Shown: positions 50-28,510 of the stretch, one piece after another | Layout of the letters: every line of letters begins with the position of its first letter | Position numbering within the stretch: the stretch's first letter is position 1 | UHGV virus genome: UHGV-0115916 | DNA: 33,398 nt | Strand: one strand, 5' to 3' | Origin: a virus | Notes under the pieces: model-generated | What the model saw: only the letters and a program-made list of their open reading frames with translations | Told to the model about the DNA's origin: nothing | Database searches by the model: none | Program-made: the position numbers and the translations under genes

Positions 50-769
<720 letters not shown>

Positions 770-811
770 CTACCGTACAAATTGTGTACGGGTATTTATG
801 GAATTATAGTG

Positions 812-1021
812 ATGACAGAATCACAATTTGAAACAAACTATCCACGAGATCAGTATAACTATGTACTAAAGAGTCGTCGTGAAAAAGGAAGTATGGGGCA
901 AACTGAAATCGAAGTTTTCGATATAGTATCAAAGCAGACTGGCGAAAAAATACTTACAGCTACTAGAACTGAACATACTAATTTACGTGGATTAGAAACT
1001 ACCGTTAGGTGGGAATGGTGA
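812..1021 (+). CDS. Hypothetical small protein (69 aa from ATG 812)
   Basis: The track ORF begins at a GTG (728) that would overlap the methyltransferase start; the first ATG is at 812. No recognisable motif; ends just before a hairpin terminator. May be spurious. Confidence 0.3.
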   Translation: MTESQFETNYPRDQYNYVLKSRREKGSMGQTEIEVFDIVSKQTGEKILTATRTEHTNLRGLETTVRWEW

Positions 1022-1023
1022 AT

Positions 1024-1054
1024 AAAAAAGCCCGTATTCGGCTACGGGCTTTTA
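1024..1054. terminator. Bidirectional intrinsic terminator hairpin
   Basis: A-run, 8-bp stem AGCCCGTA (1029-1036) / TACGGGCT (1043-1050), 6-nt loop, then T-run; lies between convergent ORFs. Confidence 0.6.
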
Positions 1055-1055
1055 T

Positions 1056-1796
1056 TCATTTATTTGATTCGAAGATATCGAAAATTGATGAATCATTGAT
1101 ATTTAAATTCTCAAACTCATTGTGTAAATCTTCTTTTAGCCTGATGATTTCACTAGAAAGGTCATAAGCTATAGATACATGTGGATTGTCAGTCAAATTC
1201 CATGTTAAATCCTCAAACTCTTTAACTTCATTGTCATTTATAGTAATACCCCAATAACCCATTATTATAGTTAGAAGGGTGATAAGTTCTGTTTGTTTAG
1301 AATTAATTTGTTCAAACTGCTTTAAGATTTTTGAAAAACTATCTTTATTATGAGGTTTAACACTCCATCCCAAAATTTTCAATTTACTATATTCGCTAAT
1401 CAAATCTCTATAGTTTTTTGAAGATAACCCTATTACACTATCAAAAGATTTAATAAGACCATGCATAACTTTAACTTGTGTAAAACGCACCGACTTTGTA
1501 TCGATTAAACAACATAACCATCTATTAAATGTATTTTCTAATATTGTAATTGTGAATTGCTTTTGTGTATTAGGTAAATGTGTAGATAAAATATTTGAAG
1601 AATGTTCAATAGCTAATTCTTGAGTAGCATCTCTTTTCCAGTTTTTAGCAATCAAAAAACCTTTATATGCAACAAAAGCCATAAAAATATTTGCTATTGA
1701 TGAAAGCCAGTCGGCAAGACTTCCAATATCAGAATGGGTTCCATATAAAATTAAAACTGATATAAAACCTAAAATCACATAAGGAATCTTTTTCAT
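1056..1796 (-). CDS. Signal-anchored membrane protein, paralogue of the 26826..27536 product
   Basis: 246 aa; N-terminal hydrophobic helix (ILGFISVLILYG), then DIGSLADWLSS motif and a second hydrophobic stretch, matching DLGSLADWISS in the 26826..27536 protein; C-terminal region diverged. Confidence 0.6.
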   Translation of the reverse strand: MKKIPYVILGFISVLILYGTHSDIGSLADWLSSIANIFMAFVAYKGFLIAKNWKRDATQELAIEHSSNILSTHLPNTQKQFTITILENTFNRWLCCLIDTKSVRFTQVKVMHGLIKSFDSVIGLSSKNYRDLISEYSKLKILGWSVKPHNKDSFSKILKQFEQINSKQTELITLLTIIMGYWGITINDNEVKEFEDLTWNLTDNPHVSIAYDLSSEIIRLKEDLHNEFENLNINDSSIFDIFESNK

Positions 1797-1856: not shown

Positions 1857-2150
1857 TTAGCTTCCACCGACCATAATCAAAAGCACCTGTAAAAGTTGCC
1901 CTAGCGGTACTTGGATTACTGCGATACCGAACGCATCCAGTACAGGTACTATAATCCAGTTATAGAGAATGATTAGTGTCAGTACAAAACCTAGTGCATT
2001 ACGCCAGTGAAATGATGCTCTTTCAATCTCTTCTTTGTTTACTTCTATTTGCCCTTCGGCGTTAGTTTTCTGTGCTTCTTTTTCAACTGTTTTTTTCTTT
2101 ATGAAAAAATCCATACCAGATTTTATTAGTTCTACTAAGATACTAATCAC
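1857..2150 (-). CDS. Small membrane protein with two C-terminal hydrophobic helices (holin candidate)
   Basis: 97 aa; charged N-terminus, then LGFVLTLIILYNWIIVPVL and LGQLLQVLLIMVGG hydrophobic segments; sits in the lysis-proximal part of the late region. Confidence 0.4.
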   Translation of the reverse strand: MISILVELIKSGMDFFIKKKTVEKEAQKTNAEGQIEVNKEEIERASFHWRNALGFVLTLIILYNWIIVPVLDAFGIAVIQVPLGQLLQVLLIMVGGS

Positions 2151-2470: not shown

Positions 2471-3973
<1,503 letters not shown>

Positions 3974-4006
3974 GAAAAGGGGCATTTTAAGCCCCTTTAT
4001 TTTTTT
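3974..4006 (+). terminator. Intrinsic terminator after the endolysin gene
   Basis: 8-bp stem AAAGGGGC (3976-3983) / GCCCCTTT (3991-3998), 7-nt loop, then ATTTTTTTC; overlaps the 3' end of the convergent ORF 3987..4262. Confidence 0.55.
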
Positions 4007-4262
4007 CAAGAATCGCTAATACGCGTTCTAATTTCACATCAACAATATGAATTTTAGAGCTTAGATCTTTAAGGCTACTCTCTAAATCATCTTGCCCTTT
4101 CTCCAGTCTCGCTACATCAGTTTTAACGTGTGTTAAATCTGATTCTAATTTAGCTAAACGAGAAGAAAGATCTTCTACATCGGCGGTTTTATCACGGAAT
4201 ATACTCCATAAAAAACCACCTGCGGCAATTACCACCGCTGCGATACTCTCCCATCCTGTCAT
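3987..4262 (-). CDS. Type-II membrane protein with coiled-coil domain (i-spanin-like or lysis accessory protein)
   Basis: 91 aa; N-terminal hydrophobic helix IAAVVIAAGGFLWSIF followed by heptad-like charged repeats (LAKLESDLTHVKTDVARLEKGQDDLESSLKDL); no o-spanin partner identified. Confidence 0.45.
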   Translation of the reverse strand: MTGWESIAAVVIAAGGFLWSIFRDKTADVEDLSSRLAKLESDLTHVKTDVARLEKGQDDLESSLKDLSSKIHIVDVKLERVLAILEKNKGA

Positions 4263-21470: not shown

Positions 21471-23376
21471 GTCTAGACGGACGTACTACACGACCTGTTT
21501 TTACTGGTGCTGGTTCTTCTTTATTTACTTCTTTATTTAGTCCTTTCTCTTTTTGTTTGGCGTTGAATTCGCGTAGTTTGCGGAATGGCTGATTACCTAA
21601 TTTAGATAGATACCAGTGGAAACATATTAAAGCGTAGTTAAGACAATCAAGCGTTTCATTCCTTGCTGAACTAATTTTCTTAACCCATACCCACGCCCCA
21701 GCTTTAATAACTCTCTTCTCACTTGATACCTGAATAAAGTAATCATCTGGTACTGAATGGCTGAAGTGTATTTGTACTTCACTACTATTACCACTATCCG
21801 ATACTGCACGGTTTAATAGTTGTCTAATATTACTTTTCCCTAAGTTTACGTTTAGGTTTATTAGACTATGACCACCAGCCGTAGAGCCTTTAAAGAGTGG
21901 GTTAGTATTTGAAGTACCGCCCTTGATTGGTTTAAAGATTGTCGATGCACTACAATAGCGATATACCGTACTGGTTGCGTTACCGTTCGAACTATCTACA
22001 AAACCTGCAAGTACTTTAAGTGGTTTACCGGATACGGTTTTAAAGTTAGTTTGTGAAAATGCTGTTAGCTTATTCCATGCGGGAGCCTCTATTTTAGTAC
22101 AGTCAATGCTATGAATACTGCGATGATCGAGTACATAAAGATTCTTTTCACTTATTCCTAACGTTGTTACTTCAAGGCGGTCTAACTGTTGGTCTACACC
22201 TAGTACGATTCCTTGACAGTCATCCGGCACGGTATCTATATCTATTGAACTATCACGTAGGTTTTCAAGTAATACTAAATCATGATCGGTATTCTCTTTA
22301 TCAATATAAGGAAGTCCTAAGACGTTATTGTAGAATGAGGCTAGATCAAATGTATAATGTGCTTCGGCAAAATCCTGTACTATTGATTTGATCGAGTTAA
22401 TCGGGGAGTATAAACGGCTAATATGATACCCCATGATATCCGTTACTTCTGGTACTGTAGCTATCCATTCACCCTTACGTATCATTCTTACACGTTCGGC
22501 TTCTGTGATTACATTATTACACTTAGGACATTGTAGTTTTGCTGTCTCTGCATCTGGAATGCGACGACGACCACCATCAATAATTTTCCAGTCGAATTTA
22601 ACATTTTCAAATACTAATTCATGTGCATGATCACAATGTGGGCAAGGTACGTAGAACTTCTGTTTATTACTTTGCTCGTACTGCTGAGTGATTAAATCAT
22701 TCTCATCAAGTGGTGTAGAACAAACCATAATAAGAGGGTTGCTAAAAGCCTTTGTACGCTGTTCTGCTAGCTTTAGTGGGTTCCCTTCATCACCATCTGC
22801 ATCTACGTTAGATATTTCGTCAAGAAAGATACGGGGGGCTGTCAAGCCTCGCAAATTCGCACTACTACCCAATGTTAGGAAGTACGTAAAAGTACCGTCT
22901 AAGTTTTGTTGTGTCTTATCATTATTAGTATAGTTTTTATCATTCTTATTACTGACTAGATTTTTAAGTACTGCACATGCTTCGATTACTGATTGCCATT
23001 TACCAGTACGAAACTTACTAGTAGTGCTGGCTGTTGCACCTGCGAAAATTAGATTGCTTGGATCATTTGCGAGGAAGTAGTACATACTATTCTGTAAAAC
23101 TGTTGTTTTGAGAAGTTGTGCACTGCTCATCAAAACTATTTTTCTAATTCTTGGATTAGTAATGTCATTTATGGGCTTGTGCTGAAAGGAAAATAACTTT
23201 ACGCGTTGTCCTTGTAGTTCCCCATCCGGGAATACTAAATTATTCTCTACCCATTCCGCTGGTAGTTGTCGCTTCGGAGGTAGGATCGACTTCGCCGCCC
23301 TCGTTAGTACCTTCATCATCTTCTGGTAGTTGTTCATCCGTGTATGTTCCTTCATATTCATAGCTACCAATTTCAT
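21448..23376 (-). CDS. Terminase large subunit (lambda gpA-like)
   Basis: 642 aa; VPCPHCDHAHELVF ... CPKCNN zinc-ribbon-like segment and DCLNYALICFHWYLSKL parallel lambda gpA (VACPHCGEEQYLKF; EALDCFVYALAAL); true start probably an internal Met (about 23316-23361) because the track ORF overlaps the small subunit gene by 137 nt. Confidence 0.85.
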   Translation of the reverse strand: MKLVAMNMKEHTRMNNYQKMMKVLTRAAKSILPPKRQLPAEWVENNLVFPDGELQGQRVKLFSFQHKPINDITNPRIRKIVLMSSAQLLKTTVLQNSMYYFLANDPSNLIFAGATASTTSKFRTGKWQSVIEACAVLKNLVSNKNDKNYTNNDKTQQNLDGTFTYFLTLGSSANLRGLTAPRIFLDEISNVDADGDEGNPLKLAEQRTKAFSNPLIMVCSTPLDENDLITQQYEQSNKQKFYVPCPHCDHAHELVFENVKFDWKIIDGGRRRIPDAETAKLQCPKCNNVITEAERVRMIRKGEWIATVPEVTDIMGYHISRLYSPINSIKSIVQDFAEAHYTFDLASFYNNVLGLPYIDKENTDHDLVLLENLRDSSIDIDTVPDDCQGIVLGVDQQLDRLEVTTLGISEKNLYVLDHRSIHSIDCTKIEAPAWNKLTAFSQTNFKTVSGKPLKVLAGFVDSSNGNATSTVYRYCSASTIFKPIKGGTSNTNPLFKGSTAGGHSLINLNVNLGKSNIRQLLNRAVSDSGNSSEVQIHFSHSVPDDYFIQVSSEKRVIKAGAWVWVKKISSARNETLDCLNYALICFHWYLSKLGNQPFRKLREFNAKQKEKGLNKEVNKEEPAPVKTGRVVRPSRRGGGFFK

Positions 23377-23812
23377 TTAATTGATCATCTATTTTTTCCT
23401 GTAGTTTGATTTTTAATTCTAATGCGTCTGCTGATTCGAATAATTCAACATAACTTGACGCGGGAATACTTCTTAATACTTGGCGTAGTTGGTAGAAGTA
23501 TTGGGATAAAGTTTGCTGTACTACTGCTACTGGTATTAGCTCGCCGGATTGCTGACGTAATTCCATTTCTTTAATATCAGCTTCTGCTTCTAACTTACGT
23601 AGTGTTGCTTTTTGTATTTGGCCTTTTGTATCACCGCTTCTTAGTGGTTCGATTACGTTTGCAAGTAACCAATCGTCAACTAATTTCTTAGGCCAGGTGA
23701 TATCTAAACCTTTACCAGACCATATACGGCTAACAGTAGAATGCTCTACGCCGAAACGATCCGCGATTTCTTGCCACGTGTAGCGGGTTCCATCGTCTTT
23801 AATTTTTGCCAT
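23240..23812 (-). CDS. Terminase small subunit (Nu1-like, N-terminal HTH)
   Basis: Start reassigned to ATG 23812 (MAKIKDDG...) with AAGGA RBS; YTWQEIADRFGVEHSTVSRIWSGKG helix-turn-helix; acidic C-terminal tail; directly upstream of the large subunit. Confidence 0.75.
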   Translation of the reverse strand: MAKIKDDGTRYTWQEIADRFGVEHSTVSRIWSGKGLDITWPKKLVDDWLLANVIEPLRSGDTKGQIQKATLRKLEAEADIKEMELRQQSGELIPVAVVQQTLSQYFYQLRQVLRSIPASSYVELFESADALELKIKLQEKIDDQLNEIGSYEYEGTYTDEQLPEDDEGTNEGGEVDPTSEATTTSGMGRE

Positions 23813-23891
23813 TTTGTTTAGTCCTTGTTTAGTACAATAAACCTGTACTTTCCTTTTATTTCGTTTTGTTTGTTTTCGATTAGAAATCCCA

Positions 23892-23949
23892 CGAATTTTA
23901 AATACAATTCGCGGCGAAAACTCGATTTTTTTGTTCTCAATTAGAGAAC
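23892..23949. promoter_or_regulatory. Palindromic elements upstream of the terminase small subunit gene (candidate late operator / packaging-site region)
   Basis: CGAATT-N8-AATTCG (23892-23911) and perfect 17-bp palindrome GTTCTCAATTAGAGAAC (23933-23949) in the 229-bp intergenic region. Confidence 0.3.
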
Positions 23950-24041
23950 CTAAAGTTAAAACTTCACTCACGATTTTAATTTTTGATTTGTAATAATATT
24001 TATATTATCATTGTATTATAAAGTAACAACAAGGACATGTA

Positions 24042-24980
24042 ATGAAACACATAATCCAAACCAGAAGTGTTTTTAAGGATATCGAAGACTCTTTATTTAG
24101 TGAGTTGCATTCAGCTAAGACAAGTATCAAAATCTGTGTTGCATGGATAAACTTTGAGCTTTTTGAAAATATATTATTATCTAAGGCTAAAGAAGGTGTT
24201 GAAGTTGAGATATTAGTTAATAATGATTATATCAATACAAAATTTCTTGATAAAATATCTGATAATATAAAACCATTAATTAATCTAATTAAAAACCCTA
24301 TTAGTAACCACTTAATGCATCATAAATTTTGTATCATTGATGATGAAGTTTTGATTACTGGCAGTTATAATTGGTCAAAAAGAGCACCATATCATTATGA
24401 AAATATAATAATCATCCGTAATGATTTCAATCTAATAATGCAATTTAAACATGAGTTTGCAGATTTAAAATACATGGGTGCAATGCCAAGTACAGAATTT
24501 AATGCATTTAAAGTAACCAAAAATCTCAATAGATTTGTTGTTGGCACATATAGTTCATCTGTGGGGATATATGAAACCGTCACATTGCAGTTATGGGAAA
24601 TTGATATTAACAACTTAACTTTTGAACGACATGGCGAAATGGATATCCCTTTCTTCAATTATTTATTAGATATTAATACTGATGATCATTATCTTATTGA
24701 TGAAAAAGAAAGGTACATCGATCTATATGATCAAGAGCGTAGACAGATGGAGACTATCCAAAGTCATTTTAGAAGATTAAATTGTTCAATTCATGCTTAT
24801 GGAACAGCAATAATAGCGAACGAGAGCGAATACCTTGAAGGTTATGAAGAGCCTATTCGTGTAATTCACTTCAATTGGATAGATATGCGATTAAGCAAAG
24901 TATTACCCTCTTCTTTGCCCGCAACTATGGAACTTGAAGGATTATGGCACGAAATATATGCTCCAAATGGATATATTTAA
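24042..24980 (+). CDS. Phospholipase-D-family (single HKD motif) nuclease with uncharacterised C-terminal domain
   Basis: 312 aa; exact H-x-K-x4-D-x6-G-S-x-N motif at aa 93-110 (HHKFCIIDDEVLITGSYN); AAGGA RBS 6 nt before the ATG; AT-rich gene. Confidence 0.8.
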   Translation: MKHIIQTRSVFKDIEDSLFSELHSAKTSIKICVAWINFELFENILLSKAKEGVEVEILVNNDYINTKFLDKISDNIKPLINLIKNPISNHLMHHKFCIIDDEVLITGSYNWSKRAPYHYENIIIIRNDFNLIMQFKHEFADLKYMGAMPSTEFNAFKVTKNLNRFVVGTYSSSVGIYETVTLQLWEIDINNLTFERHGEMDIPFFNYLLDINTDDHYLIDEKERYIDLYDQERRQMETIQSHFRRLNCSIHAYGTAIIANESEYLEGYEEPIRVIHFNWIDMRLSKVLPSSLPATMELEGLWHEIYAPNGYI

Positions 24981-25012
24981 ATAATATTCTATAATTAATG
25001 AGGAACGGTATT

Positions 25013-25372
25013 ATGTCTAATTATCCTATACCACTTAGCCTTGAATTTAATAGTCAAGATACTGCTAATATCATTTGTAGTTATCTAGAAAAAAATCATC
25101 AAGATTCTATTTTAAAAACCATATTAAATATAGATTTGTCTTTTATTGATTATCGTGCACAATCTTCTAATTACTTTATAATTAATGACGTTGAATATAT
25201 TGGAGATAATAATTATATTTTATATTATAAAATAAACTACTACATTTATAATCTCTGTAAAGATATGGATATTGATGATGACTACGAGACTTCGATAAAT
25301 TTTACATTGAATAATGGATTTTTAGTATTTGATATAATTGATTGTGAAAGAAATATATCAGATGAAATATAG
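25013..25372 (+). CDS. Hypothetical acidic small protein, partner of the PLD-family nuclease
   Basis: 120 aa from ATG 25013 (GAGGA RBS 8 nt upstream; the track start 24998 lacks an RBS); Asp/Glu-rich (DMDIDDDYE, DIIDCERNISDEI); 32 nt downstream of the nuclease gene. Confidence 0.5.
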   Translation: MSNYPIPLSLEFNSQDTANIICSYLEKNHQDSILKTILNIDLSFIDYRAQSSNYFIINDVEYIGDNNYILYYKINYYIYNLCKDMDIDDDYETSINFTLNNGFLVFDIIDCERNISDEI

Positions 25373-25436
25373 CCATATTTAATTATCACTTAAGGATTTC
25401 AACATCAGGATTTAAATTTTAATTATATATAATAGT

Positions 25437-25468
25437 AAAAGCCTAATACTCATCAGTAATAGGCTTTT
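25437..25468. terminator. Bidirectional terminator hairpin between convergent accessory operons
   Basis: 9-bp stem AAAAGCCTA (25437-25445) / TAGGCTTTT (25460-25468) with a 14-nt loop; A/T-rich flanks. Confidence 0.5.
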
Positions 25469-25475
25469 ACCTAAA

Positions 25476-25895
25476 TTATAATTGATTCAATCGATAGATA
25501 TTAGATGTACTTGAGCCATCGCTATACACCTCTGATATAGTCAGTTTGTTTCCATCCACTTTGTATTTTACTACACTATCAGCCGGATCATTTCTCCAAC
25601 GACCTGAGCTATCTGGATTGTTTGATGCCCACATAACTTGATCATCAATCAGTTTGCACTTGATAGCCCATCTTGTGCTGTCATCTTTACGTATGTAATG
25701 GACATAGGCTACATCAGATTGAATCTTATCAAGCTTCATTATTTTATGATCTCGCCCAAACATAGATGCAGCCGCCGCTTTGCAGATCTGACCAACATTA
25801 GCTTCCGCTGCGTAGAGTGAAGAACTGAACAATAATGGCACAATCACTAATAACTTTATCATCGCATATCGTCTCGTAGTAAAAATTAATTTCAC
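25476..25895 (-). CDS. Exported (signal-peptide) protein of unknown function
   Basis: 139 aa; GTG start at 25895 with AAGGA RBS; N-terminus MKLIFTTRRYAMIKLLVIVPLLFSSSLYA-AEA is a classical signal peptide; 1-nt gap to the upstream HNH gene. Confidence 0.6.
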   Translation of the reverse strand: MKLIFTTRRYAMIKLLVIVPLLFSSSLYAAEANVGQICKAAAASMFGRDHKIMKLDKIQSDVAYVHYIRKDDSTRWAIKCKLIDDQVMWASNNPDSSGRWRNDPADSVVKYKVDGNKLTISEVYSDGSSTSNIYRLNQL

Positions 25896-25896
25896 C

Positions 25897-26622
25897 TTAT
25901 TTCCTTAATAACTTTTTTAATTCCTCAACTGTCTTCATTTCTTTTCCAATATGAATCATTGCATGACAGTTTGCACATAAAGGTATAAGATCTTCAATTG
26001 GGTCAATCTTATAGCGTTTACCAATAGTATGTAGTGGCACTATATGATGAACATGAATATAATTTTTTCCGTGACTTCCATACACTTCTTCAAAATTAAA
26101 ACCACAGACACCACAACTCAAACCATGTTTATCGATACATTCTTTTCTAGCCTTTGGATCTCTCTCATAGTACGTAGCAATCCTTTGATGCTTTTCACCT
26201 TCATAGTATTCACTTTCTATTTCAGGTGTGAATGAATAGTAATCTTCATCGGTGGCATACCAATCTCCATCTTTTTTAGTAAGATATTTTCGTACTATTT
26301 TCTTTTCAAAATGTTTAATCCTAGCAGCACCATTTTCAGTTGTTTTCTCATGCCTAGTCTGGCTAAAGGTGAAAAGACTATACCCTTCATGTAAAATTTT
26401 ATCTATGTGTTCGATAGATTGTGTATAACCATTTTTTTTGTGTCCATTTACATTTTCACGCCAACTGCTAGCCAAGATTAAAACTTTCTTACCATCATCT
26501 GATCTAAGATCTTCCCAAGCTCCAAAAATTATTTTTTTGTTGATCTCATCAATAAATGACCAACTCCAGTTATCATTTTTACATGTAGCACCCAAAGAAC
26601 GCATGAACTCTGTTCGGGACAT
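25897..26622 (-). CDS. HNH nuclease (restriction / McrA-like) with N-terminal domain of unknown function
   Basis: 241 aa; C-terminal HNH motif CGVCGFNFEEVYGSHGKNYIHVHHIVPLHTIG ... LIPLCANCHAMIH; AAGGA RBS; N-terminal ~150 aa Trp-rich domain not identified. Confidence 0.75.
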   Translation of the reverse strand: MSRTEFMRSLGATCKNDNWSWSFIDEINKKIIFGAWEDLRSDDGKKVLILASSWRENVNGHKKNGYTQSIEHIDKILHEGYSLFTFSQTRHEKTTENGAARIKHFEKKIVRKYLTKKDGDWYATDEDYYSFTPEIESEYYEGEKHQRIATYYERDPKARKECIDKHGLSCGVCGFNFEEVYGSHGKNYIHVHHIVPLHTIGKRYKIDPIEDLIPLCANCHAMIHIGKEMKTVEELKKLLRK

Positions 26623-26659
26623 TTTTCATCCTTAAAATATGTGACCTACATCACATGAA

Positions 26660-26742
26660 ACTATCGACTGTAGGAGGTTTCTATCCTTCGTAAAGCTAAC
26701 AAACCTACCCAAAGTAGATAGAAACCTCCTACAATCGATAGT
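26660..26742. repeat. 26-bp near-perfect inverted repeat between divergent operons (candidate operator or RNA structure)
   Basis: Left arm ACTATCGACTGTAGGAGGTTTCTATC (26660-26685), right arm GATAGAAACCTCCTACAATCGATAGT (26717-26742); 25 of 26 positions complementary; 31-bp spacer. Confidence 0.7.
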
Positions 26743-26802
26743 GTATGTGTGTTCCTTTTGATGGTAAAGTATTAATATAGTGTTACCTAGACTGGGTGTA
26801 CA

Positions 26803-26808
26803 TATAAT
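26803..26808 (+). promoter_or_regulatory. Candidate -10 element (TATAAT) for the membrane-protein operon
   Basis: Perfect TATAAT 18 nt upstream of ATG 26826; no convincing -35 found, and the region is so AT-rich that this is weak evidence. Confidence 0.25.
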
Positions 26809-26825
26809 CAATATTTGGGTTTGAT

Positions 26826-27536
26826 ATGCTTAATCTCACTAAATGTAATTTACTTTTGATCGGCACTGTAATAACTCTATTACTGATAGCTATTCTTGTA
26901 GGTATAAAAATACTATTCTCCGATTCTAATCCAGATCTAGGCAGCTTAGCAGATTGGATCAGTTCTGTATCCGCAATAGGGACTCTTGGTGTTGCCTGGT
27001 TAGCTTATAGTAAAGCTGATGACTACATTGACAAAAAAGCTTCGGAAAGAGGAATTGATATCCTTGTCAATATGGTAACTGAATCATTCGTTGCTTATTT
27101 CAACTCACTAAATGAAACTAATTTCCATGCTTCAAAACTTGAAAATAAAATGATATTGATTGGCTTGGTTGATGAAAAAGTAGATTGCAATATTGAACTA
27201 CAATCATTAAGAGAAAAAATCATAACTCTCTTCGAAAATAGTCATCAAATAGACAAAGATTTTATAAAAATGAAAATAATGAAAATATCAAAACCCAGTG
27301 ATATTTTCTACGATCCAGTAACTAGCGATGATACATTGCAAGCGTTAAAATTAGCATTTCATAAACTGAACACTGAAATTTGTGAGAATGAAAATCAATA
27401 CAACATTAATAATGATTTACTTAGCGAAAATATCAACTTTATTAAAAACACTACCGAAAAGTTAGCCCATGATATTCGCAAACAGTTCTTTACCTCGCCG
27501 AATACTTATAAAGATTATTTTGGAAATCTGTCTTAA
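26826..27536 (+). CDS. Signal-anchored membrane protein (paralogue of the 1056..1796 product)
   Basis: 236 aa; N-terminal helix LLLIGTVITLLLIAILVGIKILF, DLGSLADWISS motif, second hydrophobic stretch, then a ~170-aa soluble domain. Confidence 0.6.
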   Translation: MLNLTKCNLLLIGTVITLLLIAILVGIKILFSDSNPDLGSLADWISSVSAIGTLGVAWLAYSKADDYIDKKASERGIDILVNMVTESFVAYFNSLNETNFHASKLENKMILIGLVDEKVDCNIELQSLREKIITLFENSHQIDKDFIKMKIMKISKPSDIFYDPVTSDDTLQALKLAFHKLNTEICENENQYNINNDLLSENINFIKNTTEKLAHDIRKQFFTSPNTYKDYFGNLS

Positions 27537-27581
27537 ATTATACGCTATCAAATATTCCATCAACATAAACAAGGAAAGTAG

Positions 27582-28280
27582 ATGACTACTCTCACTAGAA
27601 CTTATAATTTACCAAATGAGCTAGTTGAACATTTTTCAAATAACATTGTCTATTTCGAAAAACTTTTGTCTAAGGATTTTTCTGACTTAAATGTTAATGT
27701 AGCACCAGAAGACATTAAGAAAATAGAAAAATCTTTCGAAGTATCACATAGAATACGTGATTTCGAAATCAATCTGTATTGGCAAAGACTGAACTTCCTT
27801 TGGGCCATTACAGCATTGCTATTTGCTGGATGGGGAACATTGATCTTTAAAATCATCGAATTCAATGGAGGGGAAGCACCTTATATTATATTTGCCGCCT
27901 TATCATTTCTCTCACTTATAGGTGGGATTGTAACTATATTCACAAGCTTTATCATTGAGGCAGGTAAGCATTGGCAAAAGGTTTGGGAGTTTCATGTTCA
28001 CGCTCTTGAACCTTTTGTATCAGGTCATTTATATGCAATTCAGTTTTCTTATAAAAATAAAAAAAAGGCATCTATAAGTAGAAGCGTAGAAACTTTCAAT
28101 TATGCTTTGCTGTTTCTTTGGGCATGTTCAGCAGTATTCGCCGCAATCATCCCTTCACAAATAGGGAACGGTCTTGCAGGCATTATCCAATTAGTTATTT
28201 CTCTTCTTATAGTTGGTGCTTTTGTTTATATACGCAACTCTGTTACTAAAAAGGAGTCTATTAAAATTCAGCTTGATTAA
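27582..28280 (+). CDS. Integral membrane protein with about four predicted helices
   Basis: 232 aa; ~70-aa soluble N-terminus, then hydrophobic segments (LNFLWAITALLFAGWGTLIF; YIIFAALSFLSLIGGIVTIFTSFII; ALLFLWACSAVFAAIIP; LAGIIQLVISLLIVGAFVYI); AAGGAAAG RBS; 45 nt downstream of the 26826..27536 gene. Confidence 0.6.
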   Translation: MTTLTRTYNLPNELVEHFSNNIVYFEKLLSKDFSDLNVNVAPEDIKKIEKSFEVSHRIRDFEINLYWQRLNFLWAITALLFAGWGTLIFKIIEFNGGEAPYIIFAALSFLSLIGGIVTIFTSFIIEAGKHWQKVWEFHVHALEPFVSGHLYAIQFSYKNKKKASISRSVETFNYALLFLWACSAVFAAIIPSQIGNGLAGIIQLVISLLIVGAFVYIRNSVTKKESIKIQLD

Positions 28281-28300: not shown

Positions 28301-28510
28301 TTAAGCAGCCCCATAATGGGGCTTTCTTTTTTTAGCATTTACTTTTTGAATGCTCATAAGAATCTCACGTACCTTTGCTTCATTATCACCTGCATCATAT
28401 AGTACCCCATCTTTCCAGTACTGACCCAGTAGTTCTACTTTTGGTAAGCCCGGCATTGCCCTTACTCCATCTTCGTGATCAATATGTAATTCAAGTGATC
28501 CAATAATCAT
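28301..28510 (-). CDS. Hypothetical small protein
   Basis: 69-aa ORF; start overlaps the upstream ORF by 4 nt (ATGA-type coupling); 3' end overlaps the terminator hairpin. Confidence 0.4.
   Translation of the reverse strand: MIIGSLELHIDHEDGVRAMPGLPKVELLGQYWKDGVLYDAGDNEAKVREILMSIQKVNAKKRKPHYGAA
28307..28333 (+). terminator. Intrinsic terminator of the plus-strand membrane-protein operon
   Basis: 7-bp stem AGCCCCA (28307-28313) / TGGGGCT (28317-28323), 3-nt loop, then TTCTTTTTTTT. Confidence 0.65.

What the first reader, a model, noticed from the sequence alone, without database searches (positions are those of the whole stretch)
1056..1796. Diverged paralogue of the accessory membrane protein at the opposite end of the late region
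The 246-aa product shares the N-terminal architecture and the D(I/L)GSLADW(L/I)SS motif with the 26826..27536 protein about 25 kb away, but the C-terminal domains differ and this copy has no 4-helix partner gene. Two diverged copies in one phage suggests a modular family with variable specificity domains, or duplication and divergence under selection.
Basis: seen in the sequence. Interest (0 to 1): 0.45.

Follow-up and report, generated by a model that had tools for sequence, protein, structure and literature searches.

The report
Hypervariable prophage membrane protein family
The gene at 1056..1796 (minus strand) and the gene 25 kb away are true but very distant relatives in an undescribed family of prophage and plasmid inner-membrane proteins, which have a conserved membrane anchor, a fast-changing cytoplasmic helical domain, and probably a role in phage-versus-phage conflict or control of membrane-hole formation.

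Summary
The 246-aa product of 1056..1796 (minus strand) shares TM1, the motif D(I/L)GSLADW(L/I)SS and TM2 with the 26826..27536 product. The N-terminal local score is 72, against 26±5 in 5000 shuffles. The motif marks a real family with no match in Pfam, PHROGs, NCBIfam or PADLOC. An exhaustive search found 193 representative proteins, nearly all about 200-280 aa, all named ones from Enterobacterales. A leave-out profile shows the two C-termini are homologous, though pairwise similarity is undetectable.

The two copies are not an in-phage duplication. Each has about 70-100 closer relatives elsewhere. The A type lies directly after the 3TM holin-like gene, as last late gene, in 11 related loci (9 distinct variants). 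Between near-identical phages it drops to 73% DNA identity where flanks are 96-100%. The B type sits in a cargo hotspot next to the small terminase gene. There it often forms tandem arrays (up to 4 copies). In 9 of 37 locus groups it is adjacent or fused to an 8xMP/RipA-like 4TM protein.

Function is untested. My best guess (about 0.4) is a membrane-anchored phage-exclusion or abortive-infection protein with a variable sensing domain. The main rival is an antiholin-like lysis regulator.

The parts
1056..1796 (-). Gene A: 246-aa family member of the A-type (holin-adjacent) subfamily; the stop codon is 1056..1058
   Evidence: Translation. A family HMM built without the A and B subfamilies gives 99.8 bits, matching A 7-246.
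1740..1787 (-). A TM1 (residues I4-G19), preceded by the basic N-terminus MKK
   Evidence: Kyte-Doolittle 19-residue window peak of 1.58. The N-terminus has net charge +2, so it is predicted to face the cytoplasm.
1698..1730 (-). A family motif DIGSLADWLSS (residues D23-S33), in an acidic loop predicted to be periplasmic
   Evidence: Family column frequencies over 127 full-length members: G 86%, S 72%, D 98%, W 83%, S 83%.
1647..1709 (-). A TM2 (W30-A50), a weakly hydrophobic helix with a small or polar residue every 3-4 positions, followed by KNWKR
   Evidence: Family columns S46, T/N50, T/M53, A57 (99%), A60 (84%), A64 (91%) and W67 (94%) lie on one helix face. Hydropathy 1.59.
1059..1646 (-). 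A C-terminal domain (K51-K246), all-helical and predicted to be cytoplasmic; diverged homologue of the family C-terminal domain
   Evidence: On its own this region scores 36.4 bits against the leave-out HMM. It is hydrophobic at 21 of 25 conserved core columns and carries the conserved near-C-terminal F. All-helix secondary structure, though the model is low confidence.
1026..1053 (.). Bidirectional intrinsic terminator starting 2 nt after A's stop codon; shared with the convergent small gene 728..1021
   Evidence: Stem AAAAGCCCGTA/TACGGGCTTTT followed by a T run on both strands.
1857..2150 (-). Context: 97-aa holin-like protein directly upstream of A (60-nt gap, no terminator). It is not a family member.
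   Evidence: Pfam GTA_holin_3TM E 4.8e-5 (24.3 bits, cutoff 24.8) and PHROG 3427 holin. hhalign against the family gives probability 7%. Adjacency to an A-type gene is conserved in 11 loci.
26826..27536 (+). Gene B: 236-aa family member of the main (hotspot) group
   Evidence: 123 bits against the leave-out HMM, matching B 3-232. The AF2 model (pLDDT 64) shows two N-terminal helices and a helical bundle.
26934..26966 (+). B family motif DLGSLADWISS (D37-S47)
27582..28280 (+). 8xMP/RipA-family 4TM membrane protein; partner of B, with a 45-nt gap
   Evidence: Pfam PF24838 E 1.3e-16. Four hydrophobic segments. Adjacent to a family member in both gene orders in other loci, and fused to one in P0080.
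28307..28323 (+). Intrinsic terminator closing the B-8xMP unit
   Evidence: AGCCCCATAATGGGGCT followed by TTCTTTTTTT.

Best explanation
SHOWN. Gene A (1056..1796, minus strand) and gene B (26826..27536) are full-length but very distant homologues (about 20% identity). They belong to an undescribed family carried on Enterobacterales prophages and plasmids. The architecture is:
- a basic N-terminus;
- TM1, which some members lack;
- an acidic loop with the motif [ED]-x-G-S-x-[STA]-D-W-x-S;
- a weakly hydrophobic TM2 with small or polar residues on one face (S, T/N, T/M, A, A, A, W);
- a basic juxtamembrane stretch;
- a C-terminal all-helical domain of about 170 aa, predicted as an up-down four-helix bundle, with no invariant polar residues.

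The two copies belong to different subfamilies and occupy different conserved slots. A is the last late gene, directly after the holin-like gene. B lies in the cargo hotspot next to the small terminase gene, beside an 8xMP/RipA-like membrane protein.

INFERRED (probability about 0.4). These are phage-conflict proteins of the superinfection-exclusion or abortive-infection type. The cytoplasmic bundle would be the variable recognition part. The conserved hairpin would act in the inner membrane in one of two ways. It could self-associate through the small-residue face of TM2. Or it could dock onto a small multi-pass pore-forming protein: 8xMP for B-type copies, possibly the adjacent holin for A. 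Either route would permeabilise or block the membrane when a cue is present. Arrays and multiple copies would widen the range of cues recognised.
For: Family and homology:
- An exhaustive profile search found 193 representatives at E<=1e-3 and 45 at E<=1e-10. Of the 150 listed, 148 are 58-279 aa with the same layout.
- The leave-out profile matches both proteins over their full length, and both C-termini on their own.
- Motif and TM2 column frequencies. A is hydrophobic at 21 and B at 22 of 25 conserved C-terminal core columns, and both share the terminal F.
- Predicted topology is N-in, C-in, from the charge distribution.

Conflict-type behaviour:
- Mean pairwise identity is 12% in the C-terminal domain and 39% in motif plus TM2.
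- L064 and L069 are 96-100% identical in DNA across the tail and lysis genes, but only 73% in the clean window inside the A-type gene (the last window runs into the end of L069 and is not usable). L065 and L066 are 92.7% identical up to the holin gene and 74.3% in the A-type gene.
- Holin identity of 96-99% goes with A-type protein identity of 63-66%.
- Tandem arrays reach 4 copies, and 14 of 37 locus groups have 2 or more copies.
- Members sit in a cargo hotspot with PLD and HNH nucleases, DUF2971, DUF3800, Tlde1 and LprI. They also occur on Salmonella and Providencia plasmids.
- GC is low at both genes: 28-31% at A and 29-32% at B, against a typical 35-42% across the phage's structural genes.
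- A related E. coli prophage lacks both genes.

Link to a pore-forming partner:
- 8xMP is adjacent within 2 kb, on the same strand and in either order, or fused, in 9 of 37 locus groups.
- The Serratia plymuthica protein P0080 is an 8xMP-family fusion whose predicted topologies are compatible.
Against: - There is no experimental evidence.
- No member matches any PADLOC v2 defence model consistently.
- The hotspot also holds non-defence cargo (EAL, LprI, Tlde1), so guilt by association is weak.
- A has no detectable promoter of its own in the 60-nt gap after the holin gene. It is probably expressed only late in lytic growth, which is unusual for a prophage defence gene.
- A's strict position after the holin gene in 11 loci fits a lysis function at least as well.
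- Most family members have neither 8xMP nor a holin next to them, so the pore-former docking idea cannot be general.
- The structure model of A is unusable (pLDDT 38) and that of B is only moderate (pLDDT 64).
Confidence: 0.4

Rival explanations
1. A is an antiholin-like lysis-timing regulator. It is co-transcribed with the 3TM holin-like gene. Its hairpin would pair with holin TM helices, and its cytoplasmic bundle would set or delay triggering. B would play the same role for 8xMP. The family would then be partners of small pore-forming membrane proteins rather than defence proteins.
For: - An A-type gene lies 17-130 nt downstream of the holin-like gene, on the same strand, as the last gene of the block. 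This holds in 11 loci with 9 distinct variants, including a Leclercia remnant.
- There is no terminator or promoter-like site between the holin gene and A, and a terminator follows A directly.
- TM2 is weakly hydrophobic and rich in Ala/Gly/Ser/Thr.
- There is a precedent. In Vibrio phage ICP1 the PF11351-type holin TeaA has an adjacent TM-containing antiholin, ArrA, which is non-essential (PMC7182436).
- Antiholins are dispensable, which fits A's absence from some relatives.
- The B-8xMP adjacency and fusion show the same 'family member plus multi-pass membrane protein' pairing.
Against: - The A-type gene diverges far faster than the holin it would bind: 63-66% against 96-99% identity.
- A-subfamily members also occur away from any holin. 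One follows a P2-like integrase (L010) and one sits among early genes (L059).
- Most family members are in a non-lysis hotspot, in arrays, or on plasmids.
- There is no sequence similarity to ArrA (0.5 bits).
- At 246 aa with a 195-aa cytoplasmic domain, A is larger than the antiholins I recall from the literature (about 100-150 aa; from memory, not checked here).
Confidence: 0.25
2. One reading: a modular family in which a common N-terminal anchor is joined to unrelated, swapped C-terminal specificity domains.
For: - Pairwise, the C-termini of A and B show no similarity (z = 0).
- Many family hits align only over profile positions 1-85.
- Between near-identical phages the divergence boundary lies inside the A-type gene, with the 5' part conserved and the 3' part diverged.
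Against: - A profile that excludes both subfamilies matches both C-termini colinearly and significantly.
- The hydrophobic core pattern and the terminal F are shared.
- Family members have similar lengths and are all-helical.
- No other Pfam domain appears in 106 members.
Confidence: 0.08
3. Lysogenic-conversion or envelope-physiology function unrelated to phage conflict. An example would be modulation of lipid A or envelope synthesis together with the RipA-like 8xMP protein.
For: - The partner family carries the name of Francisella RipA, a membrane protein genetically linked to LpxA (PMC4322802 and PMC12444477).
- The hotspot also carries EAL and LprI genes, which act on host physiology.
Against: - RipA's own mechanism is unresolved.
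- Only 9 of 37 locus groups have 8xMP.
- Hypervariability and arrays are not expected for a housekeeping-type modulator.
Confidence: 0.1
4. Recent duplication of one gene within this phage followed by divergence, or a chance resemblance of two signal anchors.
For: Two copies in one 33-kb prophage share an 11-residue motif.
Against: - Each copy has about 70-100 closer relatives in other genomes.
- Each copy sits in a slot where its own subfamily is found in related prophages.
- Chance is excluded by the shuffle test (z = 9.2) and by the family-wide motif.
Confidence: 0.02

Closest known systems
ICP1 TeaA/ArrA holin-antiholin pair (Hays & Seed 2020, PMC7182436)
   Same: A PF11351 (GTA_holin_3TM)-type holin has a TM-containing, non-essential accessory gene next to it. 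In the window a PF11351-like 97-aa gene is followed by A.
   Different: ArrA is a 151-aa multi-TM protein with no large soluble domain and no similarity to the family (0.5 bits). The gene order is reversed. The window's holin-like protein scores just below the Pfam cutoff (24.3 against 24.8 bits).
8xMP / RipA family (Pfam PF24838; UniRef name 'RipA family octameric membrane protein')
   Same: It is the recurrent neighbour and fusion partner of the family. It is also a small inner-membrane protein.
   Different: It is a different family: four TM segments with an N-terminal soluble part. hhalign of the family against 8xMP gives probability 1.3%. A and B have no PF24838 hit.
Lambda RexA/RexB and similar prophage abortive-infection pairs (cytoplasmic sensor plus multi-pass membrane channel); from general knowledge
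   Same: A prophage-encoded pair of a 4TM membrane protein and a second protein of about 240-280 aa. The proposed logic is that a sensor opens a membrane channel.
   Different: No sequence relation: no Pfam family at E<=0.1. Here the 'sensor' is itself membrane-anchored and often occurs without the 4TM protein. Function is untested.
SLATT-type and other 2TM membrane effectors of conflict systems (CBASS and related); from general knowledge
   Same: A short TM hairpin predicted to act in the membrane, found on mobile elements and defence islands.
   Different: Only sub-threshold hits: NCBIfam SLATT_1 E 0.17 for B, and Pfam SLATT_5 E 0.025 for the 8xMP protein. There are no nucleotide-signalling partner genes nearby.
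Class II holins and pinholins (2 TM, N-in/C-in, one weakly hydrophobic TM); from general knowledge
   Same: The predicted hairpin topology and a Gly/Ala/Ser/Thr-rich TM2. A lies in the lysis block.
   Different: A and B are about three times longer, with a folded cytoplasmic domain of 170-195 aa. Most members are not in lysis cassettes. There are no holin-family hits.

Membership tests
The undescribed family defined here (2TM hairpin with a GSxxDWxS motif, plus a helical C-terminal domain) | Loop motif [ED]-x-G-S-x-[STA]-D-W-x-S immediately before TM2 | tested here: met
   A has DIGSLADWLS and B has DLGSLADWIS. Family frequencies are D 98%, G 86%, W 83% and S 83%.
The undescribed family defined here (2TM hairpin with a GSxxDWxS motif, plus a helical C-terminal domain) | TM2 with a small-residue face (A57, A60, A64) ending in W67, followed by basic residues | tested here: met
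   A has A43, G46, A50 and W53, then KNWKR. B has A, A, A and Y, then DKK.
The undescribed family defined here (2TM hairpin with a GSxxDWxS motif, plus a helical C-terminal domain) | Homologous all-helical C-terminal domain of about 170 aa | tested here: met
   Leave-out HMM on the C-termini alone: A 36.4 bits, B 24.3 bits; shuffle maxima 10.6 and 5.7 bits. Core hydrophobic columns 21/25 and 22/25.
8xMP / RipA (PF24838) | Match to the PF24838 profile with four TM segments | tested here: not met
   No Pfam hit for A or B at E<=0.1. hhalign of the family against 8xMP gives probability 1.3%. A and B have at most 2 TM segments.
Antiholin ArrA (ICP1) | Sequence similarity to ArrA | tested here: not met
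   Family HMMs score ICP1 ORF138 at 0.5-0.8 bits. tblastn of A against 50,697 phage records finds nothing.
Antiholin (functional class) | Delays or blocks holin triggering; deletion gives early lysis | not testable with these tools
   Only context is available: conserved adjacency to the holin-like gene in 11 loci.
Holin (class II / pinholin) | Small size (about 65-100 aa), 2 TM, short charged C-terminal tail, located in a lysis cassette | tested here: not met
   A is 246 aa and B is 236 aa, each with a long helical C-terminal domain. There are no holin families in Pfam or PHROGs. Most members lie outside lysis cassettes.
i-spanin | N-in single TM with a periplasmic coiled-coil domain, paired with an o-spanin lipoprotein gene | tested here: not met
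   The two hydrophobic segments and the charge distribution predict a cytoplasmic C-terminus. There is no embedded or adjacent lipoprotein ORF next to A. The topology is a prediction only.
SLATT domain | Match to the SLATT profiles above their cutoffs | tested here: not met
   Best hit is NCBIfam SLATT_1 at E 0.17 (11.8 bits, cutoff 41) for B. A has no hit.
Known anti-phage defence systems (PADLOC-DB v2.0.0) | Match to any component model | tested here: not met
   No hits for A, B or the 8xMP protein. Among 106 family members there are only 4 scattered single hits. The library dates from 2023.

The most novel reading that the evidence does not exclude
The family is the variable recognition arm of a new kind of membrane-based phage immunity. 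Hypervariable four-helix-bundle proteins, anchored by a conserved hairpin, would each recognise a different phage cue. They would then gate a ring-forming membrane protein: the octameric 8xMP/RipA-like protein when it is present, and the phage's own holin in the case of A. Tandem arrays and the two-slot arrangement would form a small repertoire of receptors. The conserved 5' hairpin-coding segment would serve as the recombination handle for exchanging specificities between prophages.
Probability: 0.2. Interest if true: 0.75.

Novelty: new variant of a known kind. Interest (0 to 1): 0.5.

Why it matters
- It defines a protein family of at least about 190 clusters at 50% identity that no domain, phage or defence library contains. 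The family has a sharp signature motif and a clear architecture.
- It gives the first functional handle on the poorly understood 8xMP/RipA membrane family, through a conserved neighbour and a natural fusion.
- It identifies two conserved variable slots in a little-studied Enterobacterales prophage lineage that integrates with a large serine recombinase, in this window's lineage between rimO and bssR (a related prophage sits in yegD).
- If the proteins are exclusion or abortive-infection factors, the very local divergence between near-identical phages offers natural specificity variants for mapping what they recognise.
- If they are holin regulators, they would be a new antiholin class for PF11351-type holins.

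Tried and rejected
- Megablast of the window and tblastn of A and of a central family member (P0031) against 50,697 phage records found nothing.
- The word-indexed search with an N-terminal profile returned only a truncated B. It was useless for reaching the wider family.
- AlphaFold2 of A with a 3-sequence alignment failed (pLDDT 38). Only the B model was searched.
- Literature searches for '8xMP', 'octameric membrane protein' and PF24838 found nothing relevant. 'RipA' searches led only to Francisella RipA-LpxA genetics.
- My first hhalign of the family against 8xMP was invalid, because the 8xMP alignment contained the fusion protein. Repeated after trimming, it showed no relation.
- The holin-like protein is related neither to 8xMP (probability 0.8%) nor to the family (7%).
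- ArrA homology was rejected.
- In-phage duplication was rejected.
- The i-spanin reading was rejected on predicted topology.
- P0154 is a 983-aa LRR-Roc protein. It is a false positive through its LGSLPDWL repeats, so motif-only matches are not specific.
- GTDB species representatives yielded only 5 loci.
Full report
1. THE OBSERVATION

The ORF at 1056..1796 is real, but it lies on the minus strand; the plus-strand reading is full of stops. It encodes 246 aa beginning MKKIPYVILGFISVLILYGTHSDIGSLADWLSSIANIFMAFVAYKGFLIAKNWKRD. I call this protein A. The 26826..27536 (+) product is 236 aa and I call it B. It has a longer first hydrophobic segment followed by SNPDLGSLADWISSVSAIGTLGVAWLAY.

BLASTP aligns only A 11-71 with B 24-85 (29% identity, E 5e-6). 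Profiles of the two small subfamilies align over 49 columns (hhalign probability 85%). A composition-preserving shuffle test gives an N-terminal local score of 72. The 5000 shuffles had mean 26.1, sd 5.0 and maximum 51. The C-terminal parts score exactly at the shuffle mean. B is the only one of 177 window ORFs that A hits. The shared motif is therefore not chance and not a generic signal anchor.

2. THE SETTING

The window is almost a whole prophage. The close relative of A (P0001) lies on a contig where the same gene order runs into bssR, yliI, gstB and dacC. The relatives of B lie on E. coli contigs where a 632-aa serine recombinase abuts rimO. No sequenced phage in the 50,697-record collection resembles it. 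Only 3 of 5,426 complete E. coli genomes match the late region, two of them as related prophages at about 76% identity and the third only over the holin-like gene. No complete E. coli genome carries A or the B/8xMP pair at megablast sensitivity.

A is the last gene of the late strand. It lies 60 nt after a 97-aa holin-like gene at 1857..2150. That gene hits Pfam GTA_holin_3TM at 24.3 bits (cutoff 24.8) and a PHROG holin family. A strong bidirectional terminator at 1026..1053 begins 2 nt after A's stop codon.

B lies in a low-GC (24-32%) island on the opposite strand, between the small terminase gene (TerS, 23240..23971) and the early genes. The island also holds a PLD-family nuclease and an HNH / type IV restriction-like gene. 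B is followed after 45 nt by a 232-aa protein of Pfam family 8xMP (PF24838, E 1.3e-16) and then a terminator.

3. A REAL, UNDESCRIBED FAMILY

Close homologues are very rare: two for A and three for B in 5.8 billion clustered proteins. Neither protein matches Pfam, PHROGs, NCBIfam, PADLOC or any PDB sequence.

An exhaustive HMMER search of 1.84 billion representatives, using a profile of both subfamilies, found 193 proteins at E<=1e-3 and 45 at E<=1e-10. Of the 150 listed, 148 are 58-279 aa and show the same layout. The two exceptions are informative:
- P0154 is an LRR-Roc protein that matches through LGSLPDWL repeats. It is a false positive.
- P0080 is a fusion protein, discussed in section 6.

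Across 127 full-length members the signature is [ED]-x-G(86%)-S(72%)-x-[STA]-D(98%)-W(83%)-x-S(83%). It is followed by a helix in which S46, T/N50, T/M53, A57 (99%), A60 (84%), A64 (91%) and W67 (94%) recur every 3-4 residues, so they lie on one face. Basic residues come next.

Charges predict an N-in, C-in hairpin with the acidic motif loop outside. TM2 is only marginally hydrophobic. Twelve of 154 members start at the motif and lack TM1, including an annotated Providencia plasmid gene.

Scans of 106 members against Pfam, PHROGs and PADLOC gave nothing consistent. All named members are 'hypothetical protein' from Enterobacterales: Enterobacter, Escherichia, Citrobacter, Serratia, Leclercia and Pectobacterium. 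Further members come from Kosakonia and Erwinia genomes and from Salmonella and Providencia plasmids.

4. ARE THE C-TERMINI DIFFERENT DOMAINS? NO.

I built a profile from 116 members that excluded the A and B subfamilies. Its matches were:
- A over residues 7-246, 99.8 bits.
- B over residues 3-232, 123 bits.
- The isolated C-terminus of A (53-246), colinear, 36.4 bits, E 2.5e-13; the best of 200 shuffles reached 10.6 bits.
- The isolated C-terminus of B (65-236), colinear, 24.3 bits, E 1e-9; the best shuffle reached 5.7 bits.

No polar residue is conserved in the C-terminal domain, so an enzyme is unlikely. The domain is one fold that has diverged very far. Mean pairwise identity is 12% there, against 39% for motif plus TM2 and 26% for TM1.

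5. NOT A DUPLICATION IN THIS PHAGE

B ranks 71st of 124 among A's family hits, and A ranks 99th of 117 among B's. Each copy sits where its own subfamily sits in related prophages.

The A subfamily has a signature of its own: AKNWKR[DE]ATQELAI, LSW-VK, EIIRLKEDL and SIFD-FE. It was found in eight further IMG/VR prophages. In all eight the A-type gene lies directly after the holin-like gene. It ends the same block: tail tip, a 91-aa TM/coiled-coil protein, an inverted lysozyme gene, a GIY-YIG gene, a 192-aa protein, holin, then the A-type gene. The same holds for the 55% homologue (L001) and for a Leclercia remnant (L057/L058). This gives 11 loci and 9 variants at the 90% level, with gaps of 17-130 nt.

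Three of these contigs are the same contigs that carry a main-type copy in the TerS-proximal island: L024+L064, L020+L067 and L023+L069. The 'two diverged copies at opposite ends' arrangement is therefore a recurrent feature of the lineage.

The slot is not obligatory. One related E. coli prophage ends at the holin gene and also lacks the island. A Serratia relative has an unrelated 230-aa protein in the slot. A-subfamily genes also occur away from holins, one after a P2-like integrase and one among early genes.

6. CONTEXT OF THE MAIN GROUP

I dereplicated the loci fetched up to (genome, viral and metagenome scans, encoding-contig look-ups and two plasmid records) into 37 groups:
- 22 groups show this lineage's small terminase gene within 6 kb. 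These members sit in the same hotspot.
- 14 groups have 2-4 family copies, usually in tandem.
- 9 groups have an 8xMP gene within 2 kb on the same strand, either before or after the family gene, often 0-50 nt away, or fused to it.

P0080 of Serratia plymuthica is named 'RipA family octameric membrane protein' by UniRef. It is 8xMP (residues 18-179) joined to a family member (242-460), and two more family copies follow it. The fusion is topologically consistent: 8xMP ends in the cytoplasm and the family protein starts there. The two families are not related to each other (hhalign probability 1.3% after the fusion was removed).

Other cargo in the same hotspot includes EAL, DUF2971, DUF3800, LprI, Tlde1 with a small membrane partner, and HNH. 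It is a general cargo slot, not purely a defence island.

7. LOCAL HYPER-DIVERGENCE

Among the post-holin pairs, holins that are 96-99% identical go with A-type proteins that are only 63-66% identical.

At the DNA level, L064 and L069 are 96-100% identical in most 400-nt windows across 7.5 kb of tail and lysis genes (a few windows are 89-93%). Identity falls to 91% at the holin/A-type junction and to 73% inside the A-type gene. The last window is affected by the contig end. L065 and L066 are 92.7% identical up to the end of the holin gene and 74.3% in the A-type gene.

The boundary lies inside the gene: the hairpin-coding 5' part is conserved and the rest is diverged. It also suggests that the conserved 5' segment acts as a recombination handle.

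8. WHAT IT MOST LIKELY DOES

Nothing here is tested experimentally. The points that favour a phage-conflict role (superinfection exclusion or abortive infection) are:
- hypervariability restricted to one domain;
- arrays and multiple slots;
- restriction to prophages and plasmids;
- patchy presence among close relatives;
- a link to a ring-forming membrane protein that scores weakly against SLATT_5 (E 0.025, below the cutoff).

In this model the cytoplasmic bundle recognises a cue. The hairpin then acts in the membrane through its small-residue face, either alone or with 8xMP. I put this at about 0.4.

The main rival (about 0.25) is an antiholin-like regulator. It rests on the strict holin adjacency, the lack of any promoter-like site between the holin gene and A, and the precedent of ICP1. 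In ICP1 the PF11351-type holin TeaA has an adjacent membrane antiholin, ArrA (PMC7182436). ArrA is not homologous to the family. This rival does not explain the hotspot copies, the arrays, the plasmid copies or the fast divergence next to a nearly invariant holin.

The two ideas can be merged if A uses the holin as B may use 8xMP. That remains speculation.

9. NOVELTY AND VERDICT

The sequence observation is correct. It is wrong on two points, because the C-termini are homologous and the copies are not a local duplication.

The family itself appears to be undescribed. It is a reasonable candidate for experimental work on prophage-encoded membrane immunity, on lysis control, and on the function of 8xMP/RipA proteins. 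Interest 0.5.

Noticed in passing
window 3521..3973 (+): The lysozyme gene (Pfam Phage_lysozyme) is inverted relative to the whole late strand. The inversion is shared by L002, L009 and L062-L069, but in L001 the gene is co-oriented with its neighbours.
   Followed up: partly
window 3046..3483 (-): A GIY-YIG / SegE-like homing-endonuclease gene sits inside the lysis block. It is conserved (48-59% identity) at the same place in eight related prophages, so it behaves like a resident gene rather than a recent invader.
   Followed up: partly
window 24042..28280: A low-GC (24-32%) cargo island lies on the strand opposite to both the late and early genes. It holds a PLD-family nuclease (24042..24980), a 124-aa ORF, a signal-peptide protein (25476..25895, -), an HNH / mREase_IV-like gene (25897..26622, -), B and 8xMP. 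Relatives carry EAL, DUF2971, DUF3800, LprI, or Tlde1 plus a membrane partner in the same slot.
   Followed up: partly
L012 6001..8825 (Serratia plymuthica CP068771.1): A natural fusion of an 8xMP protein with a family member (461 aa). It is followed by a copy lacking TM1 (169 aa), an Hha gene and a truncated copy (140 aa).
   Followed up: yes
L030 4870..7803; L034 3220..7740; L033 4685..6669: Tandem arrays of 3-4 diverged family copies in the hotspot next to the small terminase gene of related prophages.
   Followed up: partly
L065 8864..9601 (-); L066-L068; L047 903..1586: An extra family copy (228-246 aa) lies convergent to the A-type gene just beyond it. The prophage end is therefore a second family hotspot. 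Sequence beyond it is unrelated between otherwise 95-100% identical phages.
   Followed up: partly
window 728..1021 (+): A small convergent gene (core sequence MTESQFETNYPRDQYNYV...) is conserved in 5 loci. It shares the bidirectional terminator 1026..1053 with A. Its function is unknown.
   Followed up: no
window 50..763 (-): A DNA methyltransferase (PHROG 3820, E 5e-106; PADLOC mad2 hit) lies at the extreme prophage end beyond A. It is followed, in the close relative L002, by a DUF2188 gene and then bssR.
   Followed up: no
window 3987..4262 (-) and L070 9753..10097 (ICP1 ORF139): A 91-aa protein with an N-terminal TM and a coiled coil lies next to the lysozyme gene. It has the same build as ICP1 ORF139, the third TM protein beside TeaA/ArrA. 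It might be a spanin-like or holin-associated component. No spanin was otherwise identified in the window.
   Followed up: no
P0154 (representative library): A 983-aa LRR-Roc-COR protein scores E 3e-5 against the family profile purely through its LGSLPDWLQKL leucine-rich repeats. This is a warning that the motif alone is not diagnostic.
   Followed up: yes
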